This document shows positions 448 to 55,920 of a stretch of DNA of 64,000 bases, piece after piece. The position numbers were made by a program, and so were the translations under genes. Source of the DNA: Candidatus Yanofskybacteria bacterium RIFCSPHIGHO2_01_FULL_44_24. GTDB taxonomy: Bacteria > Patescibacteriota > Minisyncoccia > 2-02-FULL-40-12 > GWA2-44-9. The notes below the pieces were generated by a model. The model did no database searches, was not told where the DNA came from, and was given only the letters and a program-made list of their open reading frames with translations. The stretch's first letter is position 1, and every line of letters starts with the position of its first letter. The DNA lies in assembly GCA_001794215.1 (NCBI GenBank), contig MGJK01000011.1, positions 3,170 to 67,169 on the forward strand, read 5' to 3'.

Positions 448-553
448 CCCCATCTGGGGTCAAGCTACATACTATATACTTTATTAATTTTTGCAAATCC
501 GCCTTCGGCTTTTTACCTGCTACTATCTGAATTATCGCCCAGATGAAGCGGGG
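448..553. ncRNA. X-family structured element copy 1 (CCCCATCTGG ... GCCTTCGGC ... GCCCAGATGAAGCGGGG)
   Basis: Three copies (448-553, 8758-8862, 16400-16499) with conserved outer stem CCAUCUGG/CCAGAUGG, central C(UUCG)G hairpin and 3' AGCGGG tail. Copy 2 carries a compensatory change (CUAUCUGG/CCAGAUAG). Confidence 0.5.
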
Positions 554-4717: not shown

Positions 4718-4820
4718 TCGAGTTTATAAAGTTTGTAAAGTTATAATGTTTATAAAGTTTTAGTGAATCTGAGCCTTACTTATTAACTTTATTAACTTTA
4801 AGAACTTGATGAACTTTTAA

Positions 4821-5291: not shown

Positions 5292-5374
5292 AGTCGTTTA
5301 ACTAAAGTTAAAATTTAAAAATCAAAATGCAAAATTCCTGTAACTCATTAAAATCTTTGATTTTAATGAGCATC

Positions 5375-6458: not shown

Positions 6459-7004
6459 TTATCCGGCAGCTACCGCTTTCTTGCCGGCCTTTTTCTTTAT
6501 AACCTCCCCCTGATATCTGATTCCGCTGCCCTTGTAAGGTTCCGGCTCTCTCTTGGACCTTATCCCGGCGGCCACGTGGCCTATAAGCTCATTATCGATG
6601 CCGGATATCTTTATAACGCTCTTTTCAACTTTAAAAGTAACCCCCTCCGGCGCTTTAACCATGATTGGATGTGAATACCCAAGGTTTAGTTCCAGATCAT
6701 TGCCCTTTACATTAGCCTTGTAACCGATGCCTTCGAATTCAAGAACTTTTTCAAAACCGTCGGTAACTCCCTTGATCATGTTCTGAATAAGGGCTCTAAA
6801 CAATCCCCAGGAAGCATTGTCAATTACGGCCTGACCGCTCACCGGTTTAATCATAACTGATCCGTTAGAAACGCTTGCAGATACCGAACCGGAAATCTTC
6901 TTCTTTAATTCACCCTTGGGGCCCTTAACCGAAATCAGACCATCGTTAATCTGGACATCTACTCCTTTTGGTACTGGTATTGGTTTTTTGCCGATTTTCG
7001 ACAT
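6459..7004 (-). CDS. rplF: 50S ribosomal protein L6
   Basis: 181 aa with two L6 repeats (PIPVPKGVDV...GPKGEL). Confidence 0.9.
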   Translation of the reverse strand: MSKIGKKPIPVPKGVDVQINDGLISVKGPKGELKKKISGSVSASVSNGSVMIKPVSGQAVIDNASWGLFRALIQNMIKGVTDGFEKVLEFEGIGYKANVKGNDLELNLGYSHPIMVKAPEGVTFKVEKSVIKISGIDNELIGHVAAGIRSKREPEPYKGSGIRYQGEVIKKKAGKKAVAAG

Positions 7005-7126
7005 AAGCTTCGCTAAATTAAAAACGTAAAACTAAAAATTTAAAACTCTGGAAATCCAAAATTTTCCTTGGAGAAATTTTGGATAACATTAATTTTGCAC
7101 TTTTCGCTTTGCATTTTGAATTTTTA
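7005..7126. repeat. A-type AT-rich intergenic repeat (rpsH-rplF spacer)
   Basis: GCTTCGCTAAATTAAAA...CAAAATTTTCCTTGGAGAAATTTTG...TTTGCATTTTGA module shared with 7529-7645, 10653-10768, 11408-11529, 13410-13527 and 14630-14745. Confidence 0.7.
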
Positions 7127-7528
7127 TTACCACACCTCAAACAGCATTTCTCCTCCTATTTTATTCTTCATGGCTTCCTTGGAACTCATCATACCTTTAG
7201 GAGTCGAGATAACCGCTATTCCATATCCTGATCTTACCGGTTTTATCTCACTTGATTTAACATATAAATGGCGGGATGGACGGCTTATCACCTTGAATCC
7301 GCTTATAGCACCTTGGCCATCTTCGTATTTTAAAGTGATTTCTATATATTCATGTTCGGCCTTAACGGCTTTTTCCTTTTTTCTTTCTACTCCGCTTATG
7401 AATCCGTTTTCCTGCAAAATCGAGGCAATCTTGAACTTAGGTCCGGAAAAAGGAACCGAAACCTGCTCATGCTTAACCGCTTGAGCGTTCTTAATTCTTA
7501 CTAACATGTCTCCTATTGGATATGACAT
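7127..7528 (-). CDS. rpsH: 30S ribosomal protein S8
   Basis: 133 aa. MSYPIGDMLVRIKNA... typical S8 N-terminus. Confidence 0.9.
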   Translation of the reverse strand: MSYPIGDMLVRIKNAQAVKHEQVSVPFSGPKFKIASILQENGFISGVERKKEKAVKAEHEYIEITLKYEDGQGAISGFKVISRPSRHLYVKSSEIKPVRSGYGIAVISTPKGMMSSKEAMKNKIGGEMLFEVW

Positions 7529-7645
7529 AGCTTTACTAAATTAAAAGTTAAAAATGAAAAGTTTAAAATTCTGGTTATTAACTTCTCCGAACCATTCGGA
7601 AAAGTTAATCTCATTAATTTTGATTTTTGATTTTTGCATTTTGAT
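7529..7645. repeat. A-type AT-rich intergenic repeat (rpsN-rpsH spacer)
   Basis: Same module family, with a TCTCCGAACCATTCGGAAAAG inner hairpin variant. Confidence 0.65.
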
Positions 7646-7831
7646 TTACCAAGATGACTTCTTAACTCCGGGTAAAAGGCCTTGGCTGGCTAATTCTCTA
7701 AAATGTATCCGGCACAAACCGAATTTCCTCATGTATCCGCCTTTTCTCCCGCATAGAAAACATCTCCGAACTATCCGTGTTGAAAATTTAGGTTTCTTAT
7801 CTGATCTTGCAATTGTTGATTTCTTTGCCAT
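7646..7831 (-). CDS. rpsN: 30S ribosomal protein S14, zinc-binding type (61 aa)
   Basis: [23 protein letters not shown] zinc-ribbon S14 (type Z) signature. Confidence 0.9.
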
Positions 7832-8459: not shown

Positions 8460-8679
8460 ATATTAACGGATTGTTATGCTATCACTAAATTTGCTTTTTG
8501 AAAAGGGATTATCCATATGGAACAGTTTCTTACTCGCGGAAGATTCTTTATCGTTAGCTGGCTTGGACTTACATTTTTGGTCACTTATTTACTCCCTCAA
8601 GCATCACTTGCCGTACTTCTGCTCGTTTCCGGAATACCAGCTTGGTTACTGTCTGGCTGGCTATCCAAGCCCCGTACCG

Positions 8680-8705
8680 CCAAATAAGGCGGTTTTTTAT
8701 TGGGG
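8680..8705 (+). terminator. plus-strand rho-independent terminator (ACCGCC-AAATAA-GGCGGT + TTTTTTA) inside the minus-strand r-protein cluster
   Basis: Perfect 6-bp GC stem followed by a T-run on the plus strand only. On the minus strand the same hairpin is preceded, not followed, by the U-run. Confidence 0.45.
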
Positions 8706-8757
8706 CTCCATCCCCCACCAATTTCGTCCGCCAATCGTATCGCAAGTCGCTCCGTCC

Positions 8758-8862
8758 CGCCCTATCTGGATCCAAATTAACTTTTGGCACACTATCATCT
8801 TACAAATCGCCTTCGGCTTTTCTTCCTGTTAATACCCTTCTTTGTGCCCAGATAGAGCGGGG
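8758..8862. ncRNA. X-family structured element copy 2, inside a 412-bp non-coding insertion between rplX and rplE
   Basis: CCCUAUCUGG ... CGCCUUCGGCU ... GCCCAGAUAGAGCGGGG. The stem carries a compensated C-to-U / G-to-A change relative to copies 1 and 3. Confidence 0.5.
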
Positions 8863-8872
8863 TTCCGCTTCG

Positions 8873-9178
8873 TCAAACCTCCGCTTCACATTTCTTGCAA
8901 ATTCTGGTCTTGTTTACACCTTCCACTTTGTAACCGACTCTCGTCGGCTTACCGCATGACTTACATATCAAAGCAACGCTAGATACGCTGATGGCCCTTT
9001 CTTTATTCACAATCTGTCCTTTCTGGCCTTGCTTGCGCGGTCGAAGATGTCTCTTTACCAAGTTTAATCCTTCGACAACCAAGGTGCCGCTCTCAGGAGA
9101 AACTAAAACAACCTTCCCCTTTTTCCCGCGGTCTTTACCGCCCAGCATTATTACATTGTCACCGCGTTTTAATTTCAT
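8873..9178 (-). CDS. rplX: 50S ribosomal protein L24 with C-terminal C4 zinc-ribbon extension
   Basis: KOW motif (GDNVIMLGGKDRGKKGKV) plus C-terminal CKSCGK...CKKCEAEV. Confidence 0.85.
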   Translation of the reverse strand: MKLKRGDNVIMLGGKDRGKKGKVVLVSPESGTLVVEGLNLVKRHLRPRKQGQKGQIVNKERAISVSSVALICKSCGKPTRVGYKVEGVNKTRICKKCEAEV

Positions 9179-9257
9179 TAAAACAGTTAAAAGTTCGTCA
9201 AGTTCTTAAAGTTTTTAAAGTACTTTATGAACTTTACAAACCTTATAAACTTTAAAC

Positions 9258-10247: not shown

Positions 10248-10652
10248 CTATCGTTTCACGATTCTTGTTTTTAGGGGCAATTTATGGGAACCCAACCGCA
10301 AAGCCTCTTTAGCGTCGGCCTCAGAAACGCCGTCGATCTCGAATATTATCTTACCAGCCTCAACCGGTACAATAAAGTGCGAAAGGCCTCCCTTGCCTCC
10401 ACCCATACCCACCTCGGCGCTCTTAGCGGTCCTGGGCTTATCCGGAAATACTCTGGTCCATATTTTACCGCCCCTTTGAACAAATCGAGCCATAACCTTT
10501 CTGGCGGATTCTAACTGATTGGCCTTAACCCAAGATGATTCCCCCGCTTTAAGACCAAACGTACCGAAGCTTAACTCAACGCCTCTTGTGGCGCGCGCTT
10601 TCAACTTGCCTCGATGCACCTTCGGATGTTGTATTCTGGCTGGCTGTAGCAT
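10248..10652 (-). CDS. rplP: 50S ribosomal protein L16
   Basis: 134 aa. MLQPARIQHPKVHRGKLKARATRGVELSFGTFGLKA. Confidence 0.95.
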   Translation of the reverse strand: MLQPARIQHPKVHRGKLKARATRGVELSFGTFGLKAGESSWVKANQLESARKVMARFVQRGGKIWTRVFPDKPRTAKSAEVGMGGGKGGLSHFIVPVEAGKIIFEIDGVSEADAKEALRLGSHKLPLKTRIVKR

Positions 10653-10768
10653 GGCTTCGCTAAATTAAAAGTTAAAAGTTAAAAATGAAAAATTCAGGAA
10701 ATTCAAAATTTTCCTTGGGGAAATTTTGAATAACATTAATTTTGATTTTTGATCTTTGCATTTTGATA
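10653..10768. repeat. A-type AT-rich intergenic repeat (rpsC-rplP spacer)
   Basis: Over 90% identical to the copies at 13410-13527 and 14630-14745. Contains the perfect palindrome CAAAATTTTCC-TTGG-GGAAATTTTG and ends with GCTTCGCTAAATT abutting the start codon. Confidence 0.75.
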
Positions 10769-11407
10769 TTACTTATCAAAGACTTCACCTTTATATATCC
10801 AAACCTTAACGCCTACCGTGCCATATGTAGTATGGGCGGTAGCTTTAGCAAAATCGATATTAGCCCTAAGCGTCTGCAGCGGTAAATTCCCCTCTTCAAG
10901 ATGCTCCGATCTTGCTATTTCTGAACCGTCAAGACGGCCGCCCATCTGAAGCTTGGCTCCCTTGGCTTGCTTATTAGACAATATCTTCGCAAGGGTCTGC
11001 TTAAGAATTCGCCGATAGGGAATCCTCTTCTCCACCTGGTCAACCATAGATTCGGCCATTATCTGAGCTGATAACTCTGGGCTTTTTATCTCTTGAATCT
11101 CTATCCTTACCGAAACTTTATCTTTAAGAAGTCGCTGAACGGCTTTTTTAATATCTTCCACTCCTCCACCGCCTCGTCCTATCAAAAGACCGGGCCTGGC
11201 AGTATGAATAATTATACTTAAGGCATCACTGCCCCTTTCAATCTCTATCTTATCAATACTCATGTTCCTGAGCTTTGATTCTAAAAAGGTTCGGACTTTC
11301 AAATCGTCTTTAAGATAAGGGACGTATTTTCGCCCACCAAACCATCGGGACAGCCAGTCCTTATTAATGCCGAGTCGTAATGATGTTGGTGATATTTTTT
11401 GTCCCAT
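10769..11407 (-). CDS. rpsC: 30S ribosomal protein S3
   Basis: 212 aa with KH domain and S3 C-terminal domain (MGQKISPTSLRLGINKDW). Confidence 0.95.
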   Translation of the reverse strand: MGQKISPTSLRLGINKDWLSRWFGGRKYVPYLKDDLKVRTFLESKLRNMSIDKIEIERGSDALSIIIHTARPGLLIGRGGGGVEDIKKAVQRLLKDKVSVRIEIQEIKSPELSAQIMAESMVDQVEKRIPYRRILKQTLAKILSNKQAKGAKLQMGGRLDGSEIARSEHLEEGNLPLQTLRANIDFAKATAHTTYGTVGVKVWIYKGEVFDK

Positions 11408-11529
11408 AATCGCTTCGCTAAATTTAAAATTTAAAAATCATAGTTAAAAATTATTGAAATTCAAAACTTTGTTAACAAAGTTTTGAGTAACCTGAATTTT
11501 ACATTTTGACATTTGCATTTTGATATTCT
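11408..11529. repeat. A-type AT-rich intergenic repeat, divergent copy (rplV-rpsC spacer)
   Basis: ATCGCTTCGCTAAATTTAAAA...CAAAACTTTGTTAACAAAGTTTTG...TTTGCATTTTGAT. Confidence 0.65.
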
Positions 11530-12036
11530 TTACACCGACTTTCTCTGAAATAATTTTCTACCCATATTAAATACTCCCTTCTTCGATCCTATTTCCCTTT
11601 TAATTTCGTGCTTTTTCTCTTCAGCGTGATGAGCCTCAGTACTCAATTCTTCTTTATGCTTAGCGTCCTGCTCCTTAGTTTTACTGCGCTTGAGACCGGG
11701 AACCCTCTCATCCAAAACTATCGTAACATGGCTTGTCTTTTTCTGGATCGGCTCAGCTCTTCCGAAGCCCTTGGCTCTGAATCGTTTCAACTTTATACCT
11801 TCATTAACAAAGAATTTCTTAACGTAAAGATTATCTCTTACCATCCCGAAACTGTTCTCGGCATTAGCAATAGCGGAGTTAAGAAGTTTTCTAAGATTAT
11901 CGGCCGGTTTCCTAATGAATACCTCGAGCTGATTCAGGGCGTCAACGGCACTCTTTCCTTTGACCAAATTAACCACCGCCCTGACTTTTCTGGGCGCTAT
12001 CCTTAATCTGTTTAATTTTGCGGTGACTTCGGTCAT
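11530..12036 (-). CDS. rplV: 50S ribosomal protein L22 with about 55-aa basic/acidic C-terminal extension
   Basis: L22 core (RIAPRKVRAVVNLVKGKSAVDALNQLE) followed by a Lys/Glu-rich tail. Confidence 0.85.
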   Translation of the reverse strand: MTEVTAKLNRLRIAPRKVRAVVNLVKGKSAVDALNQLEVFIRKPADNLRKLLNSAIANAENSFGMVRDNLYVKKFFVNEGIKLKRFRAKGFGRAEPIQKKTSHVTIVLDERVPGLKRSKTKEQDAKHKEELSTEAHHAEEKKHEIKREIGSKKGVFNMGRKLFQRKSV

Positions 12037-12482: not shown

Positions 12483-12584
12483 CTCGGTTTATAAAGTTTG
12501 TAAAGTTATAAAGTTTATAAAGTTTTGTAAATCTGAACTTTTACCTCTCACTTTATGAACGTTATGAACTTGATGAACTTTTAA
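12483..12584. repeat. B-type AT-rich repeat with 9-10 bp periodic AAGTTTATAA units (rplB-rpsS spacer)
   Basis: GTTTATAAAGTTTGTAAAGTTATAAAGTTTATAAAG... Related copies at 4718-4820, 9179-9257, 21970-22050 and 37886-37986. Confidence 0.65.
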
Positions 12585-13409
12585 CTATTTAATCCGTCTT
12601 CGTATAATGAACTTATTCGACTTATTCTTCCTGTTTCTGGTTTTTACTCCACCCGTTATTCTGCCCTGAGCGGTCTTCGGTCTTCTAGTTCCCCTACCCT
12701 GTCTTCCTTCACCGCCTCCATAAGGATGATCTACCGGATTCATCGCCGTACCCCTAACCTTCGGTCTTATACCGAGCCAGCGCGACCTCCCGGCTTTTCC
12801 TGAAACAACGGAACTGTGCTCCATATTTGAAACATTGCCTATCGATGCGTAGCATTCCTCCGAAATCATTCTTGTTTCTGAAGAAGGCATGACCAATTGA
12901 ACATATCCTCCTTCGCTTGCCAAAACCGTAGCGCCGTTCCCGGCCGATCTCACCATTTTCCCGCCGCTACCAGGAAATGGTTCTATATTATGAACTATAG
13001 AGCCTTGGGGAATATTTTTGAGCTTCATCCTATTCCCGGGCTTAAGCGGTGCTTTTTCAGATGTAATGATTTTATCTCCCGGTTTAAGATCCTGGGGTGC
13101 AATGATGTATCTCTTTTCGCCATCGGCGAAGTGAAGACGGGCAATTCGGGCATTTCTGTTTGGATCATATTCTAAGGAAAAAACGGTAGCCGGAATATTA
13201 AATTTATCCTGCTTGAAATCAACGAGACGATATTGTTTCTTGGCTCCTCCGCCACGATGACCGGCGGTAATTCTTCCCTGGTTATTCCTTCCCCCGGTTC
13301 TTTTAAGATGCTCCTTCAAAAACCTTAAAGGCTCAGTCTTGGTTAATTGAGAAAAGTCCGGTCCTATCATGTGTCGCCTTGAAGGCGTTGTCGGCTTGTA
13401 ATACTTCAT
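12585..13409 (-). CDS. rplB: 50S ribosomal protein L2
   Basis: 274 aa. GRNNQGRITAGHRGGG ... HPYGGGEGR motifs. Confidence 0.95.
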   Translation of the reverse strand: MKYYKPTTPSRRHMIGPDFSQLTKTEPLRFLKEHLKRTGGRNNQGRITAGHRGGGAKKQYRLVDFKQDKFNIPATVFSLEYDPNRNARIARLHFADGEKRYIIAPQDLKPGDKIITSEKAPLKPGNRMKLKNIPQGSIVHNIEPFPGSGGKMVRSAGNGATVLASEGGYVQLVMPSSETRMISEECYASIGNVSNMEHSSVVSGKAGRSRWLGIRPKVRGTAMNPVDHPYGGGEGRQGRGTRRPKTAQGRITGGVKTRNRKNKSNKFIIRRRIK

Positions 13410-13527
13410 CGCTTCGCTGAATTAAAAATTAAAAGTTAAAAATGAAAAATTCAGGAAATTCAAAATTTTCTTTGGGGAAATTTTGAATAACATTAATTTT
13501 GATTTTTGATATTTGCATTTTGATCTT
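13410..13527. repeat. A-type AT-rich intergenic repeat (rplW-rplB spacer)
   Basis: Near-identical to 10653-10768 and 14630-14745. Confidence 0.75.
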
Positions 13528-13993: not shown

Positions 13994-14629
13994 CTATTTA
14001 CTAAAGTATGTCAATGAATCTTTCGTCATTAAAAGATATCTGCTGCCAAGAACGGCGGCTGCATTCAAATTCCTTGCCTCATAAACATCGGTTCGGGGAA
14101 TATTCCTTGAGGCTATCTTAATATCATTTTTGCTGTCGCTTGGAACAACTATCATCATGGATTGGTTCTTTTTTTCGACAAACAAATTTAAAACTGCCCT
14201 GGTAACCGCCGCCATTTCTCTTGTCTTCCTGTTCTCAAGCTTAATATCATCCAAAACTATAATCTGGCCGTCTCGAGCTTTAGCTGACAACGCAGTAAAC
14301 AAAGCTTTTTTGGCCATTTTCTTATTTATTTTTTTCTTAAAAATCCTCTCTTTAGTCGGACCGCCGGTAACTCCTCCGCCCTTCCAGATCGGAGATCGTA
14401 TAGAACCGTGACGGGCCCTACCGGTTCCTTTCTGTCTCCAGGGCTTCTTTCCACCGCCACGCACCTCTCCCCTTCCTTTGGTATGGGCGATCGTCTGTCT
14501 TTGGTTGGCTATCTGAGAAGTTACAACCTGATGCAGTAAATCTTTATTCATCTCCAAATTAAAAACCTGATCTACGAGATCAATCTGTCCGACTTTCTCT
14601 GCTTTTTGATTATACAGCGGCAATTTCAT
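13994..14629 (-). CDS. rplD: 50S ribosomal protein L4
   Basis: 211 aa. KGRGEVRGGGKKPWRQKGTGRARHGS, a canonical L4. Confidence 0.95.
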   Translation of the reverse strand: MKLPLYNQKAEKVGQIDLVDQVFNLEMNKDLLHQVVTSQIANQRQTIAHTKGRGEVRGGGKKPWRQKGTGRARHGSIRSPIWKGGGVTGGPTKERIFKKKINKKMAKKALFTALSAKARDGQIIVLDDIKLENRKTREMAAVTRAVLNLFVEKKNQSMMIVVPSDSKNDIKIASRNIPRTDVYEARNLNAAAVLGSRYLLMTKDSLTYFSK

Positions 14630-14745
14630 CGCTTCGCTAAATTAAAAATTAAAAGTTAAAAATGAAAAATTCAGGAAATTCAAAATTTTCCTTGGGAAAA
14701 TTTTGAATTTCATTAATTTTGATTTTTGATCTTTGCATTTTGATC
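14630..14745. repeat. A-type AT-rich intergenic repeat (rplC-rplD spacer)
   Basis: Near-identical to 10653-10768 and 13410-13527. Confidence 0.75.
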
Positions 14746-15354
14746 TTATTGTGTTTGGACCATAACTACTCCCCCATTATTACCGGGAACCGCTCCCTTT
14801 ACCGCTAAAAGTCCTTTTTCCTCATCTATCGCCACAACTCGAAGACCTCTGACGGTAAATTTATCATTTCCCATCCTACCGGGCATCCTCATACCTTTTA
14901 AAGTATGCTGAGGAAATCTTTGTCCGATTGAACCGGCATGACGCATTACAGAATGATGGCCGTGACTGGCAGGCATACCGGAGAATCCATGTCTTTTTAC
15001 CACGCCCTGAAAACCTTTTCCTTTAGTCATCCCCGTAACCTTCACCAAATCGCCGACGGCGAAGAGAGAAACATTGAGCTTATCTCCGCGCTTTAGCTCT
15101 CCGGGAGTAGTTCTGAATTCTTTTAAGACTTTGAAAGTTCCCAAGTCCTTGGTATGTCCTTTCTGAGCCTTGGTCACGTTTTTTTCCTTTCTTTTTCCGA
15201 ATCCAACCTGAACACCTTCGTATTTATCTTTTTCCTTCGTTCTAATCTGAACCACAGTATTCGTTTCCGCCTCAATAACCGTCACCGGAGTGACGTCACC
15301 TTTATCATCATATATCTGGGACATGCCCATTTTTTTACCTAATATGAACTTCAT
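14746..15354 (-). CDS. rplC: 50S ribosomal protein L3
   Basis: 202 aa. GMTKGKGFQGVVKRHGF... canonical L3. Confidence 0.95.
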   Translation of the reverse strand: MKFILGKKMGMSQIYDDKGDVTPVTVIEAETNTVVQIRTKEKDKYEGVQVGFGKRKEKNVTKAQKGHTKDLGTFKVLKEFRTTPGELKRGDKLNVSLFAVGDLVKVTGMTKGKGFQGVVKRHGFSGMPASHGHHSVMRHAGSIGQRFPQHTLKGMRMPGRMGNDKFTVRGLRVVAIDEEKGLLAVKGAVPGNNGGVVMVQTQ

Positions 15355-15363
15355 AGCTAAAAC

Positions 15364-15627
15364 TTATAATCCTCTTTCTAAAATACTATTGTAAATCTTT
15401 AATAACTCTTCTTTATCATCCGATCTTTCTATTAATTCATGAACTACTTGAATAGTCCTGCTTGGAACCATAAAAACTCCTCTTCCAAAACTCCGTATAG
15501 CGCTCCTTTCTTCATCATTAACGGCTAAATCCGACAGCCTTTTAGTCAGCTTGTCTCTTTCGGACTTTGTTTTATCTACTAGTTCTCTTTCCATTTTCCA
15601 CAAAAAACACCGGACTAGCCGGTGCAA
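15364..15627 (-). CDS. hypothetical small protein inserted between rpsJ and rplC (probably 76 aa from MERELV)
   Basis: ORF ends 10 nt before the rplC start. No recognisable family. Charged helical N-terminus, GRGVFMVPSRTIQVVHELIE core. Confidence 0.4.
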   Translation of the reverse strand: MHRLVRCFLWKMERELVDKTKSERDKLTKRLSDLAVNDEERSAIRSFGRGVFMVPSRTIQVVHELIERSDDKEELLKIYNSILERGL

Positions 15628-15840
15628 CCTAAGCTAATCTTAACAACTTATCTATTAAATGGTTCTATATTGATTTAAAACCAATCTTGATTATTTAAGG
15701 CATCATACCAATAATGAATTTTTAGTAAACCACTGGGCGCGGGAGGATTCCTCCTCCGGCCTTTCGTGGATAAATTCTACTATCGATTACTACCTTATTC
15801 TCTCGTCCCGTTCTTTGAGGCGAGAAGTAAGGGAATAATT

Positions 15841-16185
15841 TTAAAGTCTTTCTTTCAATTTTCCCAGCTTGTACTCAATGGTGTCCAAGGCGTCACGTTG
15901 TTCCAAGAATCTGTCCTGCAAATCGGTTCCCAGAACTTCCTCAGCCTTTAAATCGTTTAAGATCCTACTAATGCTATCCAAGGTCTCTGTCATTTGGCCT
16001 ATAACTTTTTCCGTATCAGTTTGTCCTTCAATTTTTGGTTCTTGGGGTTCTGAGGTTTTATCCGGAATATCTTCCCCTAAATTTCTCACTCTCAATTCTT
16101 CTTCATGCTGTTCAACTGATTCTTCGGGAGTATTTGGTTTTTTAAATTCTTTTGACATATCATTACTTATTGATTTTATACTCAT
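15841..16185 (-). CDS. hypothetical acidic coiled-coil protein (114 aa) inserted in the S10 operon
   Basis: Glu/Asp-rich, predicted helical (LNDLKAEEVLGTDLQDRFLEQRDALDTIEYKLGKLKERL). No family recognised. Confidence 0.4.
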   Translation of the reverse strand: MSIKSISNDMSKEFKKPNTPEESVEQHEEELRVRNLGEDIPDKTSEPQEPKIEGQTDTEKVIGQMTETLDSISRILNDLKAEEVLGTDLQDRFLEQRDALDTIEYKLGKLKERL

Positions 16186-16209
16186 GCCGCCCCAGCACCA
16201 ATCTTTTCT

Positions 16210-16377
16210 TTACTTGTTTTCTTTCAGTTTTTCTGTGTCGCCAAACAATTCATGTCTTGACGTTTTGTGAGGACCTCCGCATGTATCACACACAGGATTT
16301 GTTTTCATTTCTTCTCTTAATTCTTCCTCGGTCTCTGTTTCGGTGGGGTGCTTTTGTTTTGGTTCTTGGAGTTCCAT
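16210..16377 (-). CDS. hypothetical 55-aa ORF with CxxC motif (below the ORF-track length cut-off)
   Basis: Hand-translated as MELQEPKQKHPTETETEEELREEMKTNPVCDTCGGPHKTSRHELFGDTEKLKENK. Its stop lies 25 nt upstream of the start of the 114-aa ORF. Not in the ORF track. Confidence 0.25.
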   Translation of the reverse strand: MELQEPKQKHPTETETEEELREEMKTNPVCDTCGGPHKTSRHELFGDTEKLKENK

Positions 16378-16399
16378 GTTATTTATCCACGAATCCCGG

Positions 16400-16499
16400 C
16401 CCCATCTGGAGCGACACTCGTAATATTACTTGGTTTATTTTGCAAAACGCCTTCGGCTCTATCTGGTCTTTACTGTCATTCTTGCCCAGATGGAGCGGG
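16400..16499. ncRNA. X-family structured element copy 3, in the insertion between rpsJ and rplC
   Basis: CCCCAUCUGGAG ... ACGCCUUCGGCUCU ... GCCCAGAUGGAGCGGGA. Confidence 0.5.
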
Positions 16500-16554
16500 A
16501 TAAATTCCGGCAACCAATCGTCCTTCGCTACTGCTCGGACTCTTGGGCCGTCAT

Positions 16555-16908
16555 TTACATCTTTACCTCTATATCAACTCCGGCCGGTAAGTTTAAATTC
16601 ATTAAAGAATCGATTATTTTGGGTGTCGGCGCAGGAACATCAATTATTCTCTTATGGGTTCGCATTTCAAACTGCTCTCGTGAATTCTTATCAATGAAGG
16701 ACGAGCGATTTACGGTGTATTTATTTATTTCCGTAGGCAAGGGAACTGGTCCGGTCGGCTTACCGCCGTTTCTCTCTATCGTCTCGACAATCTGCTGAGC
16801 TGACTTATCGATAATTTTATTATCATAAGCCCGCAGTTTGATGCGTATTCTTTGACTAACCTCTTTTTCTTTTTCTTTTTTCGCCATACCCAGTATATCA
16901 ACTTCCAA
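16555..16908 (-). CDS. rpsJ: 30S ribosomal protein S10 (with short N-terminal extension)
   Basis: [39 protein letters not shown], a canonical S10. Confidence 0.9.
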
Positions 16909-17073: not shown

Positions 17074-18276
17074 TTATACGTGAATCTTCGTTACAACTCC
17101 TGCTCCTACTGTTTTACCGCCTTCTCGAATGGCAAATCTCTGTTTCTCTTCCATGGCAATGGGGGCGATAAGTTTAACTTTCAAATTAGCCGTATCTCCG
17201 GGCATGACCATCTCAGTTCCCTCGGGAAGGATAACCTCTCCGGTAACATCCGTGGTTCTGAAATAAAACTGAGGTTTGTATCCCTTAAAGAATGGGGTGT
17301 GCCGTCCTCCCTCTTCCTTAGTCAATACATATATTTCCGCATCAAATTCAGTATGAGGAGTGATGGTTCCCGGCTTTGCCAATACCTGGCCTCTTTCGAT
17401 TTCTTCTTTCTTCGTACCTCGCAAAAGTATACCGGCATTATCGCCAGCCATACCTTCGTCTAACTGCTTATTGAACATTTCGATACCGGTAACAACGGTT
17501 TTAGCGGTCGGCTTCAAACCTACAATCTCGATTTCTTCGTTAAGTTTAACCATGCCTCGCTCAATTCTGCCGGTAACAACGGTTCCTCGGCCTTCGATAG
17601 AGAAAATGTCCTCTACCGGCATCAGGAACGGCTTGTCGGTTTCTCGGACAGGATTAGGAACATACGAATCAAGGCTATCGATCAATTCCTTAACTTTTTT
17701 GACCCACTCATCGTCTTTTGTTTTGCCTTCGAGAGCTTTCAAGCCGGAACCTCTTATAATCGGGGTTTTGTCTCCGGGGAACTGGTATTTATTCAAGAGC
17801 TCTCTGATTTCGGTTTCGACTAAGTCGATCATCTCGGGATCATCAACCTGGTCAACCTTGTTCAAAAATACCAAAAGATAAGGCACGCCAACCTGTCGAG
17901 CAAGAAGAATGTGTTCTCGGGTCTGAGGCATTGGACCGTCAGAAGCAGCAACAACCAAGACAGCCGCATCCATCTGAGCAGCTCCGGTAATCATGTTTTT
18001 AATGTAGTCCTGGTGGCCCGGGGCATCAACATGGGCATAATGCCTCTTCGGAGTTTCATACTCTGAGTGGTGTAAAGCGATTGTAATACCTCGGGCTTTT
18101 TCTTCCGGAGCATTATCAATCTGATCGACTGCTTCGACGCGGGCTCCATAACCTTCGTCTTTGTAAAGATTAAGTGTATGCAAAATAGCCGCGGTAAGAG
18201 TAGTTTTACCGTGGTCAACATGACCGATAGTGCCGACATTCAAGTGCGGCTTAGATCTTTCAAATTTTCCTGCCAT
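17074..18276 (-). CDS. tuf: elongation factor Tu
   Basis: 400 aa. [27 protein letters not shown]-motifs. Confidence 0.97.
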
Positions 18277-18397: not shown

Positions 18398-18712
18398 CTA
18401 GTCAATCCCCGCCGTTCCGGATAATCCCCTCTCTTCGGTTTCTATCTGATTTTTCAACGCTGATATCTCCCGGTTCAATTTCTCCAGCAATTCAGTCTCC
18501 TTAGCGTGAATTCCGTTGCCCAGATGATGCATCTGTTCATTCGTAGCACCATTAGATGTCGAGCTGTTAATTTTAATATCCCTTTCTTCCTTTTCGGAAA
18601 CTAAGTCTCTATAGGTCTTATAATCTATAATAACCATCGAAGGATCGCCATTGTCCAAAACCAAAACAGAGGCGGATTTTTTTATTAGATTCTTAAGTTC
18701 GCTGATGTCCAA
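18398..18712 (-). CDS. hypothetical protein with YefM/Phd-like antitoxin-type N-terminal region and coiled-coil C-terminus
   Basis: N-terminus SASVLVLDNGDPSMVIIDYKTYRDLV resembles Phd/YefM beta-strand plus helix. No toxin partner nearby. Sits between fusA and tuf. Confidence 0.35.
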   Translation of the reverse strand: MDISELKNLIKKSASVLVLDNGDPSMVIIDYKTYRDLVSEKEERDIKINSSTSNGATNEQMHHLGNGIHAKETELLEKLNREISALKNQIETEERGLSGTAGID

Positions 18713-18790: not shown

Positions 18791-20926
18791 TCATTTCTTC
18801 CCCTCAACTATCAACTGGGCGATATTGTTCGGAACGGGCTCATAATGATCGAACTCCATATTAAACGTCCCCCGGCCCTCTGTCAACGACCTCAGGGCCG
18901 TAGCATATCCGAACATTTCAGATAGCGGAACACGCGATTCGATAACCTTAAGATTAAGGGGGCTTCGGTCATTAATGCTCAATATCTGTCCCCTTCTTGA
19001 AGCTAAATCTCCGGTTGATTCGCCCAAGCATTTTTCAGGAGTTATTATCTCAACTTTCATAATAGGTTCAAGTAAAATAGGCTTAGCTCTTTTGGCGGCC
19101 TCCTGCAGGGCGGTCGAGGCGGCAATCTTGAAGGCCACCTCTGAAGAATCGACTTCGTGGTATGAACCGTCATAAAGAGTCACCATCATATCAACCAAAG
19201 GAAAACCGGCAACAACTCCCTTATCCATAGCTTCACGAACTCCTTTTTCGGAAGGCGTGACAAACTCCTGAGGAATAGATCCTCCTTTTATGGCATTAAC
19301 GAATTCGTAGCCCTGTCCCCTTTCCTTGGGTTCGACTCTCAACCAAACATGGCCATACTGACCGCGACCGCCGGACTGTCTGATGTATTTACCCTCCGCT
19401 TCGGCCGTGCCGGAAATTGTTTCTTTATAAGCAACCTGAGGACGTCCGACGTTCAATCCAACGCCGAATTCCCTTTTCATCCGATCAACGATTATTTCTA
19501 AATGAAGCTCTCCCATACCCGATATGATAGTTTCTGCAGTTTCTTCATCGCTTCTTATCCTGAAAGTAGGATCCTCATCGGAAAGTTTTCTGAGCGCAAG
19601 ACTCATTTTTTCCTGATCAGCCTTGGTCTTGGGTTCCGCCCTCAAAGATATGACGGGTTCAGGAACATCTATACCCTCTAAAACTACGGGAACAGAGGGA
19701 TCGCAGAGAGTATCGCCTGTCTTAGTGGCTTTCAGACCAACCGTCGCCGCTATATTACCGGCGTATATCTCCTTTATTTCTTCTCTTTCATTGGCGTGCA
19801 ATCTGACAATACGGCTTATGCGCTCCTGCTGGCCGGTTCGGGTATTTAAAACATAAGAGCCGGAAGCAAGCTTTCCGGAATAAACACGAAAGAAAGTAAG
19901 AGATCCGACGAAAGGATCGGTAGCCGTTTTGAAAGCTAATGCGGCAAACGGAGCATTGTCATCAGGCGAAATAGTCATATCCTTTCCGGTCTTCTGATCA
20001 ACGGCATTGGTCGCTGAAATATCAACTGGGGAGGGCAAATAATACGCTACTGCATCTAAAACAAGCTGGACGCCCTTATTCTTTAGCGCTGATCCGCAAA
20101 GAACGGGGAAAATTTTATTTTCGATAGTCGCCCTACGAATAATTTTCCTCAATCTTTCGACAGAGATCTCCTTTCCATCGAGGTATTCAGCCATAGCTTC
20201 ATCGTCCTGCTCGACAATCCTTTCAATAGCAGCAGCTCTTTCTTGCTTAGCCTTATCAGCTAAATCGGCCGGAATAGCACCTTTGACTATCTTCTCACCC
20301 TTATCGCCCTCAAATGTGTAATATTCCATTGTCAAGAGATCGACGATTCCCTTGAACTGATCCTCGTGACCGTCGGGAATCTGAAGCTTCACCGCATGAG
20401 GTGATAACCTTTCTAAAATTGATTGAAATGAACGGTCGAAAGATGCACCAAGACGATCAAGCTTATTGATAAAACAAACCCGGGGAACCTTATAATCATC
20501 CGCGTACCTCCAGTTAGTTTCAGATTGGGGTTCAACTCCGGCGACACCGTCAAAAACGACAACCGCACCGTCGAGGACCCGCAAAGAACGCTTAACTTCA
20601 ATTGTAAAATCGATATGCCCGGGAGTATCTATAATGTTCAGCTTGACCTTCTCGTCTTCCCGCCCTTGGCGAGGCTCGCCTTCAGCGGCCTTGTTCTTGG
20701 CATCCGTTGGAGACCAATAGGCAGTCGTGGCAGCAGCAGTAATAGTAATTCCCCTCTCCCGCTCCTGTTCCATCCAATCCATTACCGTATCACCCTCGTG
20801 AACTTCTCCTATCTTATGCGAAATTCCTGTATAAAAAAGAATCCTCTCCGAGGTTGTGGTTTTGCCCGCATCAATATGGGCAATGACGCCGAAGTTTCTA
20901 ATTTTATTTATTGGATAATCCGCCAT
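18791..20926 (-). CDS. fusA: elongation factor G
   Basis: 711 aa. AHIDAGKTTTSERIL, DTPGHIDF, five-domain EF-G architecture. Confidence 0.97.
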   Translation of the reverse strand: MADYPINKIRNFGVIAHIDAGKTTTSERILFYTGISHKIGEVHEGDTVMDWMEQERERGITITAAATTAYWSPTDAKNKAAEGEPRQGREDEKVKLNIIDTPGHIDFTIEVKRSLRVLDGAVVVFDGVAGVEPQSETNWRYADDYKVPRVCFINKLDRLGASFDRSFQSILERLSPHAVKLQIPDGHEDQFKGIVDLLTMEYYTFEGDKGEKIVKGAIPADLADKAKQERAAAIERIVEQDDEAMAEYLDGKEISVERLRKIIRRATIENKIFPVLCGSALKNKGVQLVLDAVAYYLPSPVDISATNAVDQKTGKDMTISPDDNAPFAALAFKTATDPFVGSLTFFRVYSGKLASGSYVLNTRTGQQERISRIVRLHANEREEIKEIYAGNIAATVGLKATKTGDTLCDPSVPVVLEGIDVPEPVISLRAEPKTKADQEKMSLALRKLSDEDPTFRIRSDEETAETIISGMGELHLEIIVDRMKREFGVGLNVGRPQVAYKETISGTAEAEGKYIRQSGGRGQYGHVWLRVEPKERGQGYEFVNAIKGGSIPQEFVTPSEKGVREAMDKGVVAGFPLVDMMVTLYDGSYHEVDSSEVAFKIAASTALQEAAKRAKPILLEPIMKVEIITPEKCLGESTGDLASRRGQILSINDRSPLNLKVIESRVPLSEMFGYATALRSLTEGRGTFNMEFDHYEPVPNNIAQLIVEGKK

Positions 20927-21969: not shown

Positions 21970-22162
21970 TCGCGGGTTAAAAGTCCATCAAGTTCTTAAA
22001 GTTAATAAAGTACTTTACAAACTTTATAACTTTACAAACTTTATAAACTATTTCTTAGGTCTCTTCGCTCCGTATTTGCTCCTCTGTTGTCCCGATTTTG
22101 TTCATCGGAACGATGACTACAAAATCGTGGATCCACGATTTGCCCTGCAAATCGGGACATTC

Positions 22163-24816: not shown

Positions 24817-24887
24817 CGGGCTGTCGGATAATGGTAGTCCGTACCCTTGGGGTGGGTATAGCCCGAGTTCGATTCTCGGCAGCCCGA
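24817..24887 (+). tRNA. tRNA-Pro (anticodon GGG)
   Basis: Hand-folded cloverleaf. Acceptor CGGGCTG/CAGCCCG, D-arm GGAT-AATGGTA-GTCC, anticodon arm TACCC-TTGGGGT-GGGTA, T-arm CCGAG-TTCGATT-CTCGG, discriminator A. No encoded CCA. Confidence 0.8.
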
Positions 24888-24978
24888 CTGAACGAAGTGA
24901 AGGAGGTCTCGAGCCGATTATTAAGGCGAGAGACAAGACATATTCAAAAACAGGTTCGATGCCTGTTTTTGAATTGGG
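24883..24978 (+). repeat. direct repeat copy 1: tRNA-Pro 3' end plus about 80 nt with terminator-like hairpin
   Basis: CCGACTGAACGAAGTGAAGGAGGTCTCGAGCCGATTATTAAGGCGAGAGACAAGACATATTCAAAAACAGGTTCGATGCCTGTTTTTGAAT. About 90% identical to 25723-25808. Confidence 0.7.
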
Positions 24979-25722: not shown

Positions 25723-25808
25723 GCCGACTGAAGTGAAGGAGGTCTCGAGCCGATTAAGGCGAGAGACAAGACATATTCATAAATAGGCTCGATGCCTATT
25801 TATGAATC
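25723..25808 (+). repeat. direct repeat copy 2 (att-like), without a tRNA
   Basis: CCGACTGAAGTGAAGGAGGTCTCGAGCCGATTAAGGCGAGAGACAAGACATATTCATAAATAGGCTCGATGCCTATTTATGAAT. Confidence 0.7.
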
Positions 25809-55884: not shown

Positions 55885-55920
55885 CTATTATATTAAAATT
55901 GTAAATCGGGACAAACAAGG

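What the first reader, a model, noticed from the sequence alone, without database searches (positions are those of the whole stretch)
15364..16554. 1.2-kb non-ribosomal insertion between rpsJ and rplC: three small acidic ORFs plus an X-element
rpsJ and rplC are normally adjacent. Here they are separated by the X3 element, a 55-aa CxxC ORF (16210-16377, not in the ORF track), a 114-aa acidic coiled-coil ORF (15841-16185) and a 76-87-aa ORF (15364-15627) that ends 10 nt before rplC. None resembles a known ribosomal or regulatory protein. The 213-bp gap 15628-15840 has GC hairpins (GGAGGATTCCTCC). Small proteins co-transcribed with r-proteins could be lineage-specific ribosome-associated factors.
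Basis: partly seen in the sequence, partly recalled or inferred. Interest (0 to 1): 0.6.

Follow-up and report, generated by a model that had tools for sequence, protein, structure and literature searches.

The report
Variable spacer between rpsJ and rplC
In this uncultured groundwater bacterium the ribosomal genes rpsJ and rplC are separated by 1.2 kb, but only a folded RNA stretch there is shared by relatives; the small proteins are specific to one or two species, so they are unlikely to be core ribosome parts.

Summary
rpsJ (16555-16908) and rplC (14746-15354), both on the minus strand, are 1200 nt apart. The spacer holds the X3 repeat, ORF A (55 aa), ORF B (114 aa), a 243-nt non-coding stretch and ORF C (76-87 aa). 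The genome is Candidatus Yanofskybacteria (CPR).

ORF A and ORF C have no detectable relative anywhere. ORF B is a real gene, with one homologue (42% identity) at the same position in one other species. Four closer relatives with enlarged spacers carry other small ORFs, and one has none.

It is a single-copy, roughly 245-nt structured RNA (here "CB"). Its first hairpin shows compensatory changes and starts 0-9 nt after an upstream stop codon. It ends in a terminator-like hairpin plus U-tract that sits 12-14 nt before rplC in the simplest relatives. In the window, ORF C occupies that slot.

X3 is one copy of a dispersed palindromic repeat of about 110 nt.

Best reading: this is a fast-turnover intercistronic spacer built around a candidate cis-regulatory RNA, with passenger small genes. 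Interest is modest.

The parts
16555..16908 (-). rpsJ (ribosomal protein S10), the upstream flank. The likely start is the ATG at 16887.
   Evidence: Pfam Ribosomal_S10, E=4.5e-33. Gene calls of 110 or 117 aa in L001-L006.
16392..16510 (-). X3, one copy of a palindromic repeat of about 110 nt. A closing stem of 13-16 bp (CCCGCTCCATCTGG / CCAGATGGGGCCGGG) encloses a conserved GCC-GAA-GGC mini-hairpin.
   Evidence: Three copies in the window. Further copies at L009 1767-1877 (E=3e-14) and L011 4627-4737 (E=2e-6). A compensatory C-G to T-A change in X2. Folds at -34.9 kcal/mol, z=-2.9. An X-like hairpin with the same 5' flank, GGAATTTA, follows rpsJ in L167.
16210..16377 (-). ORF A, 55 aa, with a single CxxC. 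It is species-specific and its coding status is uncertain.
   Evidence: Only a self hit among 5.8 billion proteins and no tblastn hit in 160 related loci. The coding score is 4.2 bits/100 nt, between real genes (6.4-8.1) and spurious ORFs (-1.5 +/- 3.9). Its start context and its ELQEPKQK motif resemble those of ORF B and of the relatives' ORFs.
16186..16209 (-). Motif AAGATTGGTGCTGGGGCGGC immediately upstream of the ORF B ATG. It matches the 3' arm of the hairpin that follows rpsJ in L167, and the sequence directly after rpsJ in L008.
   Evidence: Read directly from the sequences. That it is a relic of an ancestral hairpin arm is my inference.
15841..16185 (-). ORF B, 114 aa, pI 4.6. The N-terminus (residues 1-56) is predicted disordered and acidic. 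Residues 57-113 form a conserved helical hairpin. This is a real protein-coding gene.
   Evidence: An exhaustive phmmer search found one homologue, P0005 (E=6e-7, 42% identity over residues 41-113). P0005 is encoded between rpsJ and rplC on L167. Of 24 conserved residues in 52 aligned codons, 14 use different codons. Coding score 6.4. AF2 pLDDT 72.7.
15599..15841 (-). CB, a single-copy conserved structured RNA element. P1 is 15786-15839 and carries the invariant AUAAGGUAGUAAU. P2 is 15736-15761 and is variable; it is the 'GC hairpin'. P3 is 15660-15683. P4, the terminator-like hairpin, is 15607-15625 and is followed by a U-tract.
   Evidence: nhmmer hits upstream of rplC in L007-L011 and L167. 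The two sequences not used to build the profile scored E=8e-46 (L011) and 7e-23 (L167). MFE -72 kcal/mol, z=-4.1. P1 is 90.7% paired, with 6 pairs changed on both sides and 0/500 shuffles reaching its covariation score. P3+P4 are 90% paired, with 3 pairs changed on both sides. No Rfam match. Its motifs are unique in the window. Coding score -13.
15364..15594 (-). ORF C, 76 aa from the ATG (or 79/87 aa from upstream TTG codons that overlap P4 and its U-tract). It is a species-specific four-helix protein. Its ATG lies 12 nt after P4, and its stop lies 9 nt before rplC.
   Evidence: Only a self hit in the word-indexed search and no tblastn hit in related loci. Coding score 8.6, as high as ribosomal protein genes. 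Single-sequence AF2 gives pLDDT 91.5 and pTM 0.79. No fold match with E<1. In L007 and L167 the rplC ATG sits 12-14 nt after the same hairpin.
14746..15354 (-). rplC (ribosomal protein L3), the downstream flank.
   Evidence: Pfam Ribosomal_L3, E=3.3e-14.

Best explanation
**What it is.** The 1.2 kb is a composite, fast-evolving expansion of the rpsJ-rplC intercistronic spacer in a small clade of Candidatus Yanofskybacteria.

**The conserved core.** The core is a single-copy structured RNA of about 245 nt (CB).
- Hairpin P1 begins 0-9 nt after the stop codon of whatever ORF lies upstream.
- P2 is a variable hairpin.
- P3 is a conserved hairpin.
- P4 is a terminator-like hairpin followed by a U-tract.
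- In the simplest relative, L007, CB is the entire spacer and ends about 12-14 nt before the rplC start codon.

**What this species carries around the core.**
- X3, a copy of a dispersed palindromic repeat.
- ORF B, a real gene for a small acidic helical-hairpin protein, shared with one other species at the same position.
- ORF A, species-specific, with a weak coding signal. It looks like a local duplicate of the 5' region of ORF B.
- ORF C, a species-specific four-helix protein. It is wedged exactly between the P4 U-tract and rplC, so its ATG occupies the position that the rplC ATG has in relatives. rplC now follows 9 nt after its stop.

**How it works (inferred, not shown).**
- Everything is on the operon strand. 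In relatives there is no room for a promoter between P4 and rplC.
- The small ORFs and rplC are therefore expressed by read-through from tuf/rpsJ.
- CB acts in cis as a partial terminator or attenuator, or as a processing and stability element. It would set how much expression continues from rpsJ into rplC-rplD and beyond.
- The small proteins are passengers on a strongly expressed operon, not conserved ribosome components.
For: **Anatomy and identity:**

**Spacer size in the clade.** It is 88, 233, 260, 771, 1020, 1204 and 1404 nt in different species.

**CB is the shared part.**
- It is the only block shared at DNA level.
- It is found in all seven species, always upstream of rplC.
- Compensatory changes support P1 and P4 (CCGG changes to CCAG/CUGG in L007 and L167).
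- Its fold has z=-4.1.
- Its motifs are single-copy in the window.
- An ORF ends 0-9 nt before P1 in 7 of 7 species.

**The P4-type hairpin is widespread in this group.** A hairpin plus U-run lies 7-22 nt before the rplC ATG in 13 further loci (L007, L012, L013, L014, L018, L022, L026, L035, L042, L055, L086, L089, L105). Those with informative record titles are Parcubacteria-type. It is found in none of the loci titled as Chloroflexota, Actinomycetota or Bacteroidota. Some spacers are only 59-88 nt in all.

**ORF C start.** Its ATG is 12 nt after P4.

**ORF B is real.**

**The ORF content turns over.**
- No hits for A, B or C in the closer relatives.
- Those relatives hold other small-ORF families. 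L008_81 and L010_51 are related (z=9). The 100-aa ORF of L010 matches an ORF on L087.

**Coding evidence:** coding statistics and AF2 models.

**Precedent from the literature.** Ribosomal-protein leaders repress through conditional Rho-independent terminators (PMC7247131). The E. coli S10 leader has five hairpins including an L4-responsive terminator (PMC3616713).
Against: - There are no expression data of any kind. Read-through, co-transcription and translation are all inferred.
- P4 could be a full terminator with an unrecognised promoter inside CB. A weak TTTACT-16-TATGAT match exists at 15729-15702, but it is poorly conserved in the alignment.
- The RNA alignment has only seven sequences. 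P3 hardly varies.
- Hairpins followed by T-runs also lie between other ribosomal protein genes of this genome. P4 may therefore be generic.
- For ORF A and ORF C, 'no homologue' rests on a word-indexed search that missed the true ORF B homologue. Distant relatives may exist.
- A short shared N-terminal motif (SE-x-x-EPK-I/V-E) links ORF A, ORF B and the small ORFs of L008, L009 and L010 (z=2.6-5.6). The small proteins may therefore be more related than they look.
Confidence: 0.55

Rival explanations
1. One reading: ORFs A, B and C are lineage-specific ribosome-associated factors. They would be co-expressed with ribosomal proteins because they act on or in the ribosome.
For: - They share the strand and, presumably, the transcript with rpsJ and rplC.
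- ORF B is under protein-level selection and keeps its position in two species.
- Small acidic helical ORFs occupy this spacer in at least 5 of 7 clade members, and they share a short N-terminal motif.
- ORF C is positioned to be translationally coupled to rplC.
Against: - ORF A and ORF C were found in no other species.
- ORF B was found in only one other species.
- L007 has no ORF in the spacer, and L012 and L013 have short spacers.
- The ORFs of the relatives belong to different families.
- There is no similarity to any ribosomal protein or ribosome factor in Pfam, NCBIfam or the PDB.
- Other CPR lineages carry quite unrelated genes at the same junction.
Confidence: 0.1
2. CB is a stand-alone small RNA gene, or an sRNA derived from the 3' UTR of the rpsJ/ORF B transcript and ended by P4. 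It would act in trans rather than as a leader for rplC.
For: - It is a discrete element of about 245 nt ending in a hairpin plus U-tract.
- Single-stranded motifs are invariant: AUAAGGUAGUAAU, GAUUGGUUUUAAAU and UUAGC.
- In the window, L008, L009, L010 and L011 it is 92-240 nt away from rplC.
Against: - It is always found between rpsJ and rplC and nowhere else in 1.3 Mb of related loci.
- In L007 and L167 it starts at the upstream stop codon and ends 12-14 nt before the rplC ATG. That leaves no room for its own promoter or for a promoter for rplC.
Confidence: 0.15
3. The spacer is the footprint of mobile DNA. X-type palindromic elements (MITE-like) or small gene cassettes inserted into a permissive intergenic site, and nothing in the spacer has a function tied to the operon.
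For: - X is dispersed: 3 copies in 64 kb, and copies at different operon positions in L009 and L011.
- It has terminal inverted arms of 13-16 bp.
- Gene content differs between sister species.
- Many other palindromic repeats fill the spacers of this operon.
Against: - No transposase or integrase lies in or next to the spacer.
- No target-site duplication is evident at the X flanks (by inspection).
- GC content (0.34-0.49) is close to that of the neighbours (0.40-0.46).
- Viral contigs hold no matches to X, ORF B or ORF C.
- CB is single-copy and syntenic, so at least that part is not mobile.
Confidence: 0.15
4. The ORFs are chance open frames, and the whole spacer is non-coding.
For: - ORF A has only an intermediate coding score (4.2) and no relatives.
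- No Shine-Dalgarno sequence precedes any of the three.
- The spacer is AT-rich, and its acidic, helix-prone sequences can score well in AlphaFold.
Against: - ORF B has a homologue with 14 synonymous codon differences among 24 conserved residues.
- The in-frame scores of ORF B and ORF C (6.4 and 8.6) equal those of real small ribosomal protein genes. They lie 2-2.6 sd above the mean for 110 spurious ORFs, and all other frames are strongly negative.
- ORF C gives pLDDT 91.5 from a single sequence.
Confidence: 0.05

Closest known systems
E. coli S10-operon leader (L4-interacting attenuator RNA)
   Same: A multi-hairpin RNA of 170-250 nt ending in a terminator hairpin plus U-run, just upstream of the first regulated ribosomal protein cistron. 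The regulated genes include rplC and rplD (PMC3616713).
   Different: - The E. coli leader precedes rpsJ and follows a promoter. CB follows rpsJ, or a small ORF, and starts at that ORF's stop codon.
- There is no sequence or Rfam similarity.
- The E. coli RNA is confined to Gammaproteobacteria (PMC3616713).
- L4 binding and NusA dependence are untested here.
Candidate L4 ribosomal leader of Archaeoglobi (upstream of rplC, rplD, rplW, rplB)
   Same: A conserved RNA structure placed directly upstream of rplC-rplD and proposed as an autoregulatory leader (PMC7247131, Table 1).
   Different: It comes from a different domain of life. The Rfam scan returned no match to it or to any family. The ligand is unknown in both cases.
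REP/BIME-type and MITE-like palindromic intergenic repeats
   Same: X is short (about 110 nt), has terminal inverted arms that form a long stem, occurs in several copies, and sits between co-transcribed genes.
   Different: - All five X copies seen have the same orientation relative to transcription.
- X has a conserved internal GCC-GAA-GGC hairpin.
- No target-site duplication and no partner transposase was seen.
- The family is known only from this clade so far.
Orphan (taxonomically restricted) small protein genes embedded in conserved operons
   Same: ORFs A, B and C are short, have no family assignment, and are restricted to one or two species.
   Different: ORF C sits precisely in the start position of an essential gene and is confidently predicted to fold. 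ORF B has a positional orthologue despite only 42% identity.

Membership tests
E. coli-type S10 leader (L4 attenuator) | Located in the 5' UTR upstream of rpsJ, downstream of the operon promoter | tested here: not met
   CB lies downstream of rpsJ and starts 0-9 nt after an upstream stop codon in 7 of 7 species.
E. coli-type S10 leader (L4 attenuator) | Several hairpins, followed by a terminator hairpin and U-run just before the first regulated cistron | tested here: met
   P1-P3 plus P4/U-tract. The distance to the rplC ATG is 12-14 nt in L007 and L167.
E. coli-type S10 leader (L4 attenuator) | Sequence and structure homology to the gammaproteobacterial RNA | tested here: not met
   No Rfam family matched at gathering score. 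At E<=10 only weak hits, taken as noise. Whether Rfam 15 holds this leader was not verified.
E. coli-type S10 leader (L4 attenuator) | Binds L4 and causes NusA-dependent termination | not testable with these tools
   Needs in vitro transcription and binding assays.
Known Rfam RNA families (any) | Covariance-model score at or above the family threshold | tested here: not met
   Only tRNAs and the 5' end of 23S rRNA were found in the window.
MITE (miniature inverted-repeat transposable element), for X | Terminal inverted repeats and multiple dispersed copies | tested here: met
   Arms of 13-16 bp. Three copies in the window plus copies in L009 and L011.
MITE (miniature inverted-repeat transposable element), for X | Target-site duplication at the flanks | tested here: inconclusive
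   No shared flank duplication was seen by eye in alignment A5. With only five copies, a 2-nt duplication cannot be excluded.
MITE (miniature inverted-repeat transposable element), for X | A related autonomous element with a transposase and the same ends | not tested
   The whole genome was not available. None lies adjacent in the window.
Ribosomal proteins and known ribosome-associated factors, for ORFs A, B and C | Profile match to a ribosomal or ribosome-factor family | tested here: not met
   Pfam, NCBIfam and PHROGs gave nothing below E=0.04. The PDB sequence search and Foldseek gave nothing significant.
Ribosomal proteins and known ribosome-associated factors, for ORFs A, B and C | Conservation across the lineage that shares the ribosome | tested here: not met
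   ORF A and ORF C occur in one species only, and ORF B in two of eight related species.
Zinc-ribbon or zinc-finger small proteins, for ORF A | Two CxxC (or CxxC plus HxxH-type) ligand pairs at suitable spacing | tested here: not met
   There is a single CxxC (C30, C33), followed by H37 and H42. No profile match.
Type II toxin-antitoxin modules, for the spacer ORFs | Profile match to a toxin or antitoxin family, and a two-gene arrangement | tested here: not met
   No Pfam, NCBIfam or PADLOC hits for A, B or C, nor for the 69-aa/49-aa pair of L008 that looked TA-like by eye. Only the separate 104-aa ORF between fusA and tuf has a weak Phd/YefM hit (E=3e-4, below the cut-off).

The most novel reading that the evidence does not exclude
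CB would be a new kind of translation-coupled attenuator, and the passengers would be ribosomal-protein chaperones.

- The stop codon of the upstream cistron sits at the foot of P1 in all seven species.
- A terminating ribosome would therefore melt P1 and shift the choice between P4 and an alternative pairing. That pairing would be invariant UUAGC with the GCURR of the P4 loop.
- This would tie read-through into rplC-rplD to translation of rpsJ or of the small ORF, or to free uS10 or uL4.
- In addition, the acidic helical passengers (the ORF B family, ORF C) would be dedicated chaperones or antagonists of the very basic uL3, uL4 or uS10 encoded next to them. That would be analogous to the eukaryotic ribosomal-protein chaperones (comparison from my own knowledge, not tested here).
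Probability: 0.08. Interest if true: 0.6.

Novelty: new member of a known kind. Interest (0 to 1): 0.3.

Why it matters
**Limited wider reach.** The finding does not open a general question.

**What it offers.**
- A concrete candidate cis-regulatory RNA for the rplC-rplD operon in a CPR lineage. No ribosomal-protein autoregulation is known there, and the E. coli leaders do not reach it (PMC3616713).
- Evidence that the rpsJ-rplC junction, which is tight in most bacteria, is a recurrent site of gene gain in CPR genomes.
- A clean example of an orphan gene (ORF C) that has taken over the start position of an essential gene.

**What it warns against.** Reading co-location with ribosomal genes as evidence of ribosomal function. 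The small proteins turn over between sister species.

Tried and rejected
**Family and structure searches**
- Pfam, NCBIfam, PHROGs, PADLOC and the PDB sequence search gave no usable hit for ORFs A, B and C.
- Foldseek of the ORF C and ORF B models against the PDB and BFVD gave nothing below E=0.5, only generic helical hairpins.

**Homologue searches**
- The three word-indexed homologue searches returned only self clusters. That search missed the true ORF B homologue, which exhaustive phmmer later found. Absence for A and C is therefore weaker than it looks.
The best was L087, a 1.2-kb contig.
- Viral-contig scans for X, ORF B and ORF C were empty.

**Selection and RNA models**
- A dN/dS test within the species was impossible, because six assemblies are identical.
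- The covariance model of CB P3-P4 found no members beyond the seven training sequences in 0.97 Mb.
- An HMM of ORF B plus P0005 did not reach the small ORFs of L008, L009 or L010.

**Ideas considered and dropped**
- CB as tmRNA, 6S, SRP or RNase P RNA. There was no Rfam or ARAGORN signal.
- A conserved sigma-70 promoter inside CB. The -10 region is not conserved in the alignment.
- The L008 69-aa/49-aa pair as a RelE-type toxin-antitoxin remnant. This was an impression by eye, with no profile support.
- Mimicry of a 16S or 23S rRNA site by AUAAGGUAGUAAU. It could not be tested, because only 209 nt of rRNA lie in the window.
- Horizontal origin judged by composition. GC content is unremarkable.
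Full report
**Where we are**

The window carries the str/S10/spc ribosomal superoperon on the minus strand. The order is:
- fusA, 18791-20926
- a 104-aa ORF, 18398-18712
- tuf, 17074-18276
- rpsJ, 16555-16908
- the 1200-nt spacer, 15355-16554
- rplC, 14746-15354, followed by rplD and onward

Pfam confirms S10 (E=4.5e-33) and L3 (E=3.3e-14). An exact-protein look-up places the locus on GenBank LCJR01000008.1 (GCA_000994085.1) and on 22 further metagenome contigs. The sources name it Candidatus Yanofskybacteria, from Rifle aquifer groundwater. Six independent assemblies are identical over the 2163 nt from rpsJ to rplC, so the spacer is not an assembly artefact.

**Checking the observation**

- ORF A (16210-16377) is 55 aa with a single CxxC.
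- ORF B (15841-16185) is 114 aa with pI 4.6.
- ORF C (15364-15627) is 87 aa from TTG, 79 aa from a second TTG (the GenBank call), or 76 aa from the ATG at 15594. It ends 9 nt before rplC.
- ORF C is not really acidic: 16 D+E against 15 K+R.

X3 (16392-16510) has two more copies in the window, at 443-558 in the 23S rRNA leader and at 8752-8868 in the rplX-rplE spacer.

Among 78 genome loci of other species with both genes, 68 have rpsJ-rplC gaps of 321 nt or less and only 8 exceed 700 nt. All 8 are CPR or Patescibacteria by record title. The gap is therefore unusual for bacteria, but it recurs in this radiation. There the inserted genes are unrelated from lineage to lineage. Examples are a tsaD-like gene in Saccharibacteria, a membrane protein in Ryanbacteria, and a 2xCxxC protein plus an acidic protein in L086.

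**The proteins: searches**

No family, defence-system, phage or PDB match exists for A, B or C. Word-indexed searches of 5.8 billion proteins return only each ORF's own cluster. tblastn finds none of them in 160 related loci.

An exhaustive phmmer search of 1.84 billion representatives with ORF B found one true homologue. This is P0005, 93 aa, E=6e-7, 42% identity over residues 41-113. P0005 lies on a 2-kb contig (L167) with this layout:
- rpsJ (89% identity)
- an X-like hairpin
- P0005
- the conserved RNA block
- rplC

In 52 aligned codons, 24 residues are identical and 14 of those use different codons. Differences by codon position are 22, 16 and 31. ORF B is therefore a translated gene under selection. 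Its conserved part is the C-terminal helical hairpin (AF2 helices 57-81 and 86-113). The N-terminal 56 residues are predicted disordered.

**The proteins: coding evidence for A and C**

I trained a three-periodic Markov model on 56 long ORFs of the window. In-frame scores, in bits per 100 nt:

| Sequence | Score |
|---|---|
| ORF C | 8.6 |
| ORF B | 6.4 |
| ORF A | 4.2 |
| Real small ribosomal protein genes | 6.4-8.1 |
| 110 spurious ORFs | -1.5 +/- 3.9 |

ORF C also gives a confident single-sequence AlphaFold model with four helices, pLDDT 91.5 and pTM 0.79. It has no fold match. I take B as real, C as probably real, and A as doubtful.

**What the relatives show**

A genome scan with L3 gave the close relatives below.

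| Locus | rpsJ-rplC spacer |
|---|---|
| L007 | 260 nt |
| L008 | 1020 nt |
| L009 | 771 nt |
| L010 | 1404 nt |
| L011 | contig starts inside the spacer |
| L012 | 233 nt |
| L013 | 88 nt |

- L007 has no ORF in the spacer.
- L008, L009 and L010 hold other small, mostly acidic helical ORFs. The ORF B/P0005 profile does not reach them.
- Some of those ORFs form families of their own. L008_81 and L010_51 are related (z=9.1). The 100-aa ORF of L010 matches an ORF after rpsJ on L087.
- A short motif near the N-terminus, SE-x-x-EPK-(I/V)-E, is encoded by GAACCAAAARTTGAR. It recurs in L008_81, L010_96, L010_51 and L009, and in ORF B (residues 45-55) and ORF A (residues 3-9). Pairwise scores are marginal, at z=2.6-5.6.
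- The start context GTAAATAAATAAAAA(A)C(C)ATGAGCGAA is shared by L010 and L167.
- The motif AAGATTGGTGYYGGGGYG precedes the first spacer ORF in L008 and L167, and precedes ORF B in the window.

My inference is that an old, very fast-evolving small gene sits after rpsJ in part of the clade. It has been duplicated, replaced or lost repeatedly. ORF A looks like a by-product of such a local duplication.

**The conserved part is RNA**

I call it CB, at window 15599-15841.

Distribution:
- A profile of CB finds it in L007, L008, L009, L010, L011 and L167, always upstream of rplC.
- The two sequences not used to build the profile scored E=8e-46 (L011) and E=7e-23 (L167).
- It occurs nowhere else in the window, and nowhere else in 0.97 Mb of other loci.
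- It has a negative coding score and no Rfam match.
- It folds well below shuffled controls, at -72 against -52.9 +/- 4.6 kcal/mol, z=-4.1.

Structure:
- **P1 (15786-15839).** It is 90.7% paired across seven species, against 66% or less when the partner columns are slid. Six pairs are changed on both sides, and 0/500 shuffles reach its covariation score. Its 3' strand, AUAAGGUAGUAAU, is invariant.
- **P2 (15736-15761).** It differs between species.
- **P3 (15660-15683).** UGGUUUU/AAAACCA, nearly invariant.
- **P4 (15607-15625).** GCACCGG-CUAGU-CCGGUGU followed by U6. Three of its pairs changed on both sides, with CCGG becoming CCAG/CUGG in L007 and L167.

**Two positional regularities**

First, an ORF ends 0-9 nt before the 5' strand of P1 in all seven species. 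That ORF is rpsJ itself in L007 and a small ORF elsewhere.

Second, in L007 and L167 the rplC ATG lies 12-14 nt after P4.
- A hairpin plus U-run 7-22 nt before rplC also occurs in 13 loci: L007, L012, L013, L014, L018, L022, L026, L035, L042, L055, L086, L089 and L105.
- Those with informative record titles are Parcubacteria-type, such as Giovannonibacteria, Nealsonbacteria, Ryanbacteria and Paceibacterota.
- Some of these spacers are only 59-88 nt in total.
- The feature appears in none of the loci titled as Chloroflexota, Actinomycetota or Bacteroidota.
- With so little room, rplC must be transcribed through the hairpin. It is therefore not a simple operon end.

In the window, the ATG of ORF C lies 12 nt after P4, exactly where rplC starts in the simpler relatives. 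rplC follows 9 nt after the ORF C stop. ORF C has thus been wedged into the initiation slot of rplC. In L009 an X copy occupies the same interval.

**How it most likely works**

Shown:
- the anatomy
- the conservation pattern
- the covariation
- the coding status of ORF B

Inferred:
- The spacer is transcribed from upstream, from tuf/rpsJ.
- CB acts in cis as a partial terminator or attenuator, or as a processing and stability element, between rpsJ and the rplC-rplD block.
- The small genes are passengers that gain expression from the operon.

The nearest precedents are these:
- The E. coli S10 leader has five hairpins, including an L4- and NusA-responsive terminator, but it lies upstream of rpsJ and is confined to Gammaproteobacteria (PMC3616713).
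- A candidate L4 leader lies upstream of rplC in Archaeoglobi (PMC7247131).

CB shares the architecture and the regulated genes. It shares neither the position relative to rpsJ, nor the sequence, nor any tested ligand.

One further point is suggestive but rests on invariant bases. The invariant UUAGC lies 12-13 nt upstream of P4 and can pair with the conserved GCURR of the P4 arm and loop in all seven species (by inspection). That pairing would be an alternative structure exclusive with P4. It has no covariation support.

**X3**

The five X copies share 13-16-bp terminal arms and an internal GCC-GAA-GGC hairpin. There is one clear compensatory change in X2. All five copies have the same orientation relative to transcription.

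L167 has a differently filled hairpin at the same place after rpsJ, with the same 5' flank GGAATTTA. A hairpin after rpsJ is therefore older than this particular repeat. No transposase, no obvious target duplication and no viral match were seen. I file X as a REP- or MITE-like palindromic repeat of unknown mobility.

**Verdict**

- The real conserved feature is an undescribed structured RNA upstream of rplC, restricted to a small clade.
- ORF B is a real orphan-family gene, ORF C is probably real and species-specific, and ORF A is doubtful.
- This is a new member of known kinds: a candidate ribosomal operon leader, a palindromic repeat, and orphan small genes. It is of modest interest.

The main caveats are three:
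- There are no expression data.
- The RNA alignment has only seven sequences.
- The searches for ORF A and ORF C were less sensitive than the one that found the ORF B homologue.

Noticed in passing
window 18398-18712 (-): A 104-aa ORF lies between fusA and tuf. Its N-terminus gives a weak Phd/YefM antitoxin match (Pfam E=3e-4, below the cut-off). Unlike ORFs A-C it is conserved at the same position in relatives: 48-51% identity in L007, L008 and L010, and 32% in L012. It is a better candidate for a clade-wide small protein of the str operon than the ORFs in the finding.
   Followed up: partly
window 7001-7123, 10648-10770, 13405-13527, 14625-14747; also 5293-5410, 7527-7653, 11409-11532, 36455-36554: AT-rich palindromic repeats of about 115-120 nt, with arms of about 54 nt, fill the spacers between many ribosomal protein genes (for example rplC-rplD and rplD-rplW). 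Copies are 76-95% identical (D1-D5, D8, I3-I10). Long hairpins inside an essential operon are odd.
   Followed up: no
window 4722-4830, 9177-9257, 12487-12593, 21976-22052, 37889-37960: A second repeat family has 9-nt periodicity (GTTTATAAAGTTTGTAAAG-like). It occurs in both orientations in intergenic spacers of the same operon and elsewhere (D6, D7, D14, I7-I16).
   Followed up: no
window 8460-8872 (-): The rplX-rplE spacer is 413 nt. It contains repeat X2 (8752-8868) plus about 290 nt of non-coding sequence with higher GC content and several hairpins, for example AAAAAACCGCCTTATTTGGCGGT. No Rfam match.
   Followed up: no
window 1-209 and 443-558 (-): The 5' end of 23S rRNA is at 209 and runs off the window. 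Repeat X1 sits about 235 nt upstream, in its leader. tRNA-Ile and tRNA-Ala, which usually lie in the 16S-23S spacer, are about 55 kb away (55782-57835). No 16S rRNA is in the window.
   Followed up: no
window 53177-53281/54078-54182 and 54179-54279/55685-55785: Two pairs of inverted repeats of about 100 nt, 98-99% complementary, lie next to tRNA-Ala (55782-55855). A partial tRNA-Ala copy is at 55912-55946 (I1, I2, D19).
   Followed up: no
window 24920-24974 and 25753-25807: Direct repeats of 55 nt (91% identical) lie 833 nt apart, immediately after tRNA-Pro (24817-24888). The arrangement resembles attachment sites (D15).
   Followed up: no
L007, L012, L013, L014, L018, L022, L026, L035, L042, L055, L086, L089, L105 (7-22 nt upstream of rplC): A GC-rich hairpin followed by a U-run sits 7-22 nt before the rplC start codon in many Parcubacteria-type genomes, some with spacers of only 59-88 nt. 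It is absent from the non-CPR loci fetched. It may be a radiation-wide feature of the rpsJ-rplC junction.
   Followed up: partly
L056 3184-6001, L058 3169-6001, L052 3912-6001, L022 2304-3571, L086 5017-6001: Other CPR lineages have unrelated insertions of 1-2.8 kb between rpsJ and rplC. Saccharibacteria carry a tsaD-like 353-aa gene plus membrane and TPR-like ORFs. Ryanbacteria carry a membrane protein and an ORF on the opposite strand. L086 carries a 70-aa 2xCxxC protein plus an 89-aa acidic protein.
   Followed up: partly
L008 5023-5365: Directly after rpsJ, L008 carries a 69-aa ORF overlapping a 49-aa ORF. By eye they look like an antitoxin and a truncated RelE/ParE toxin. Pfam, NCBIfam and PADLOC gave no hit, so this remains an impression only.
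   Followed up: yes
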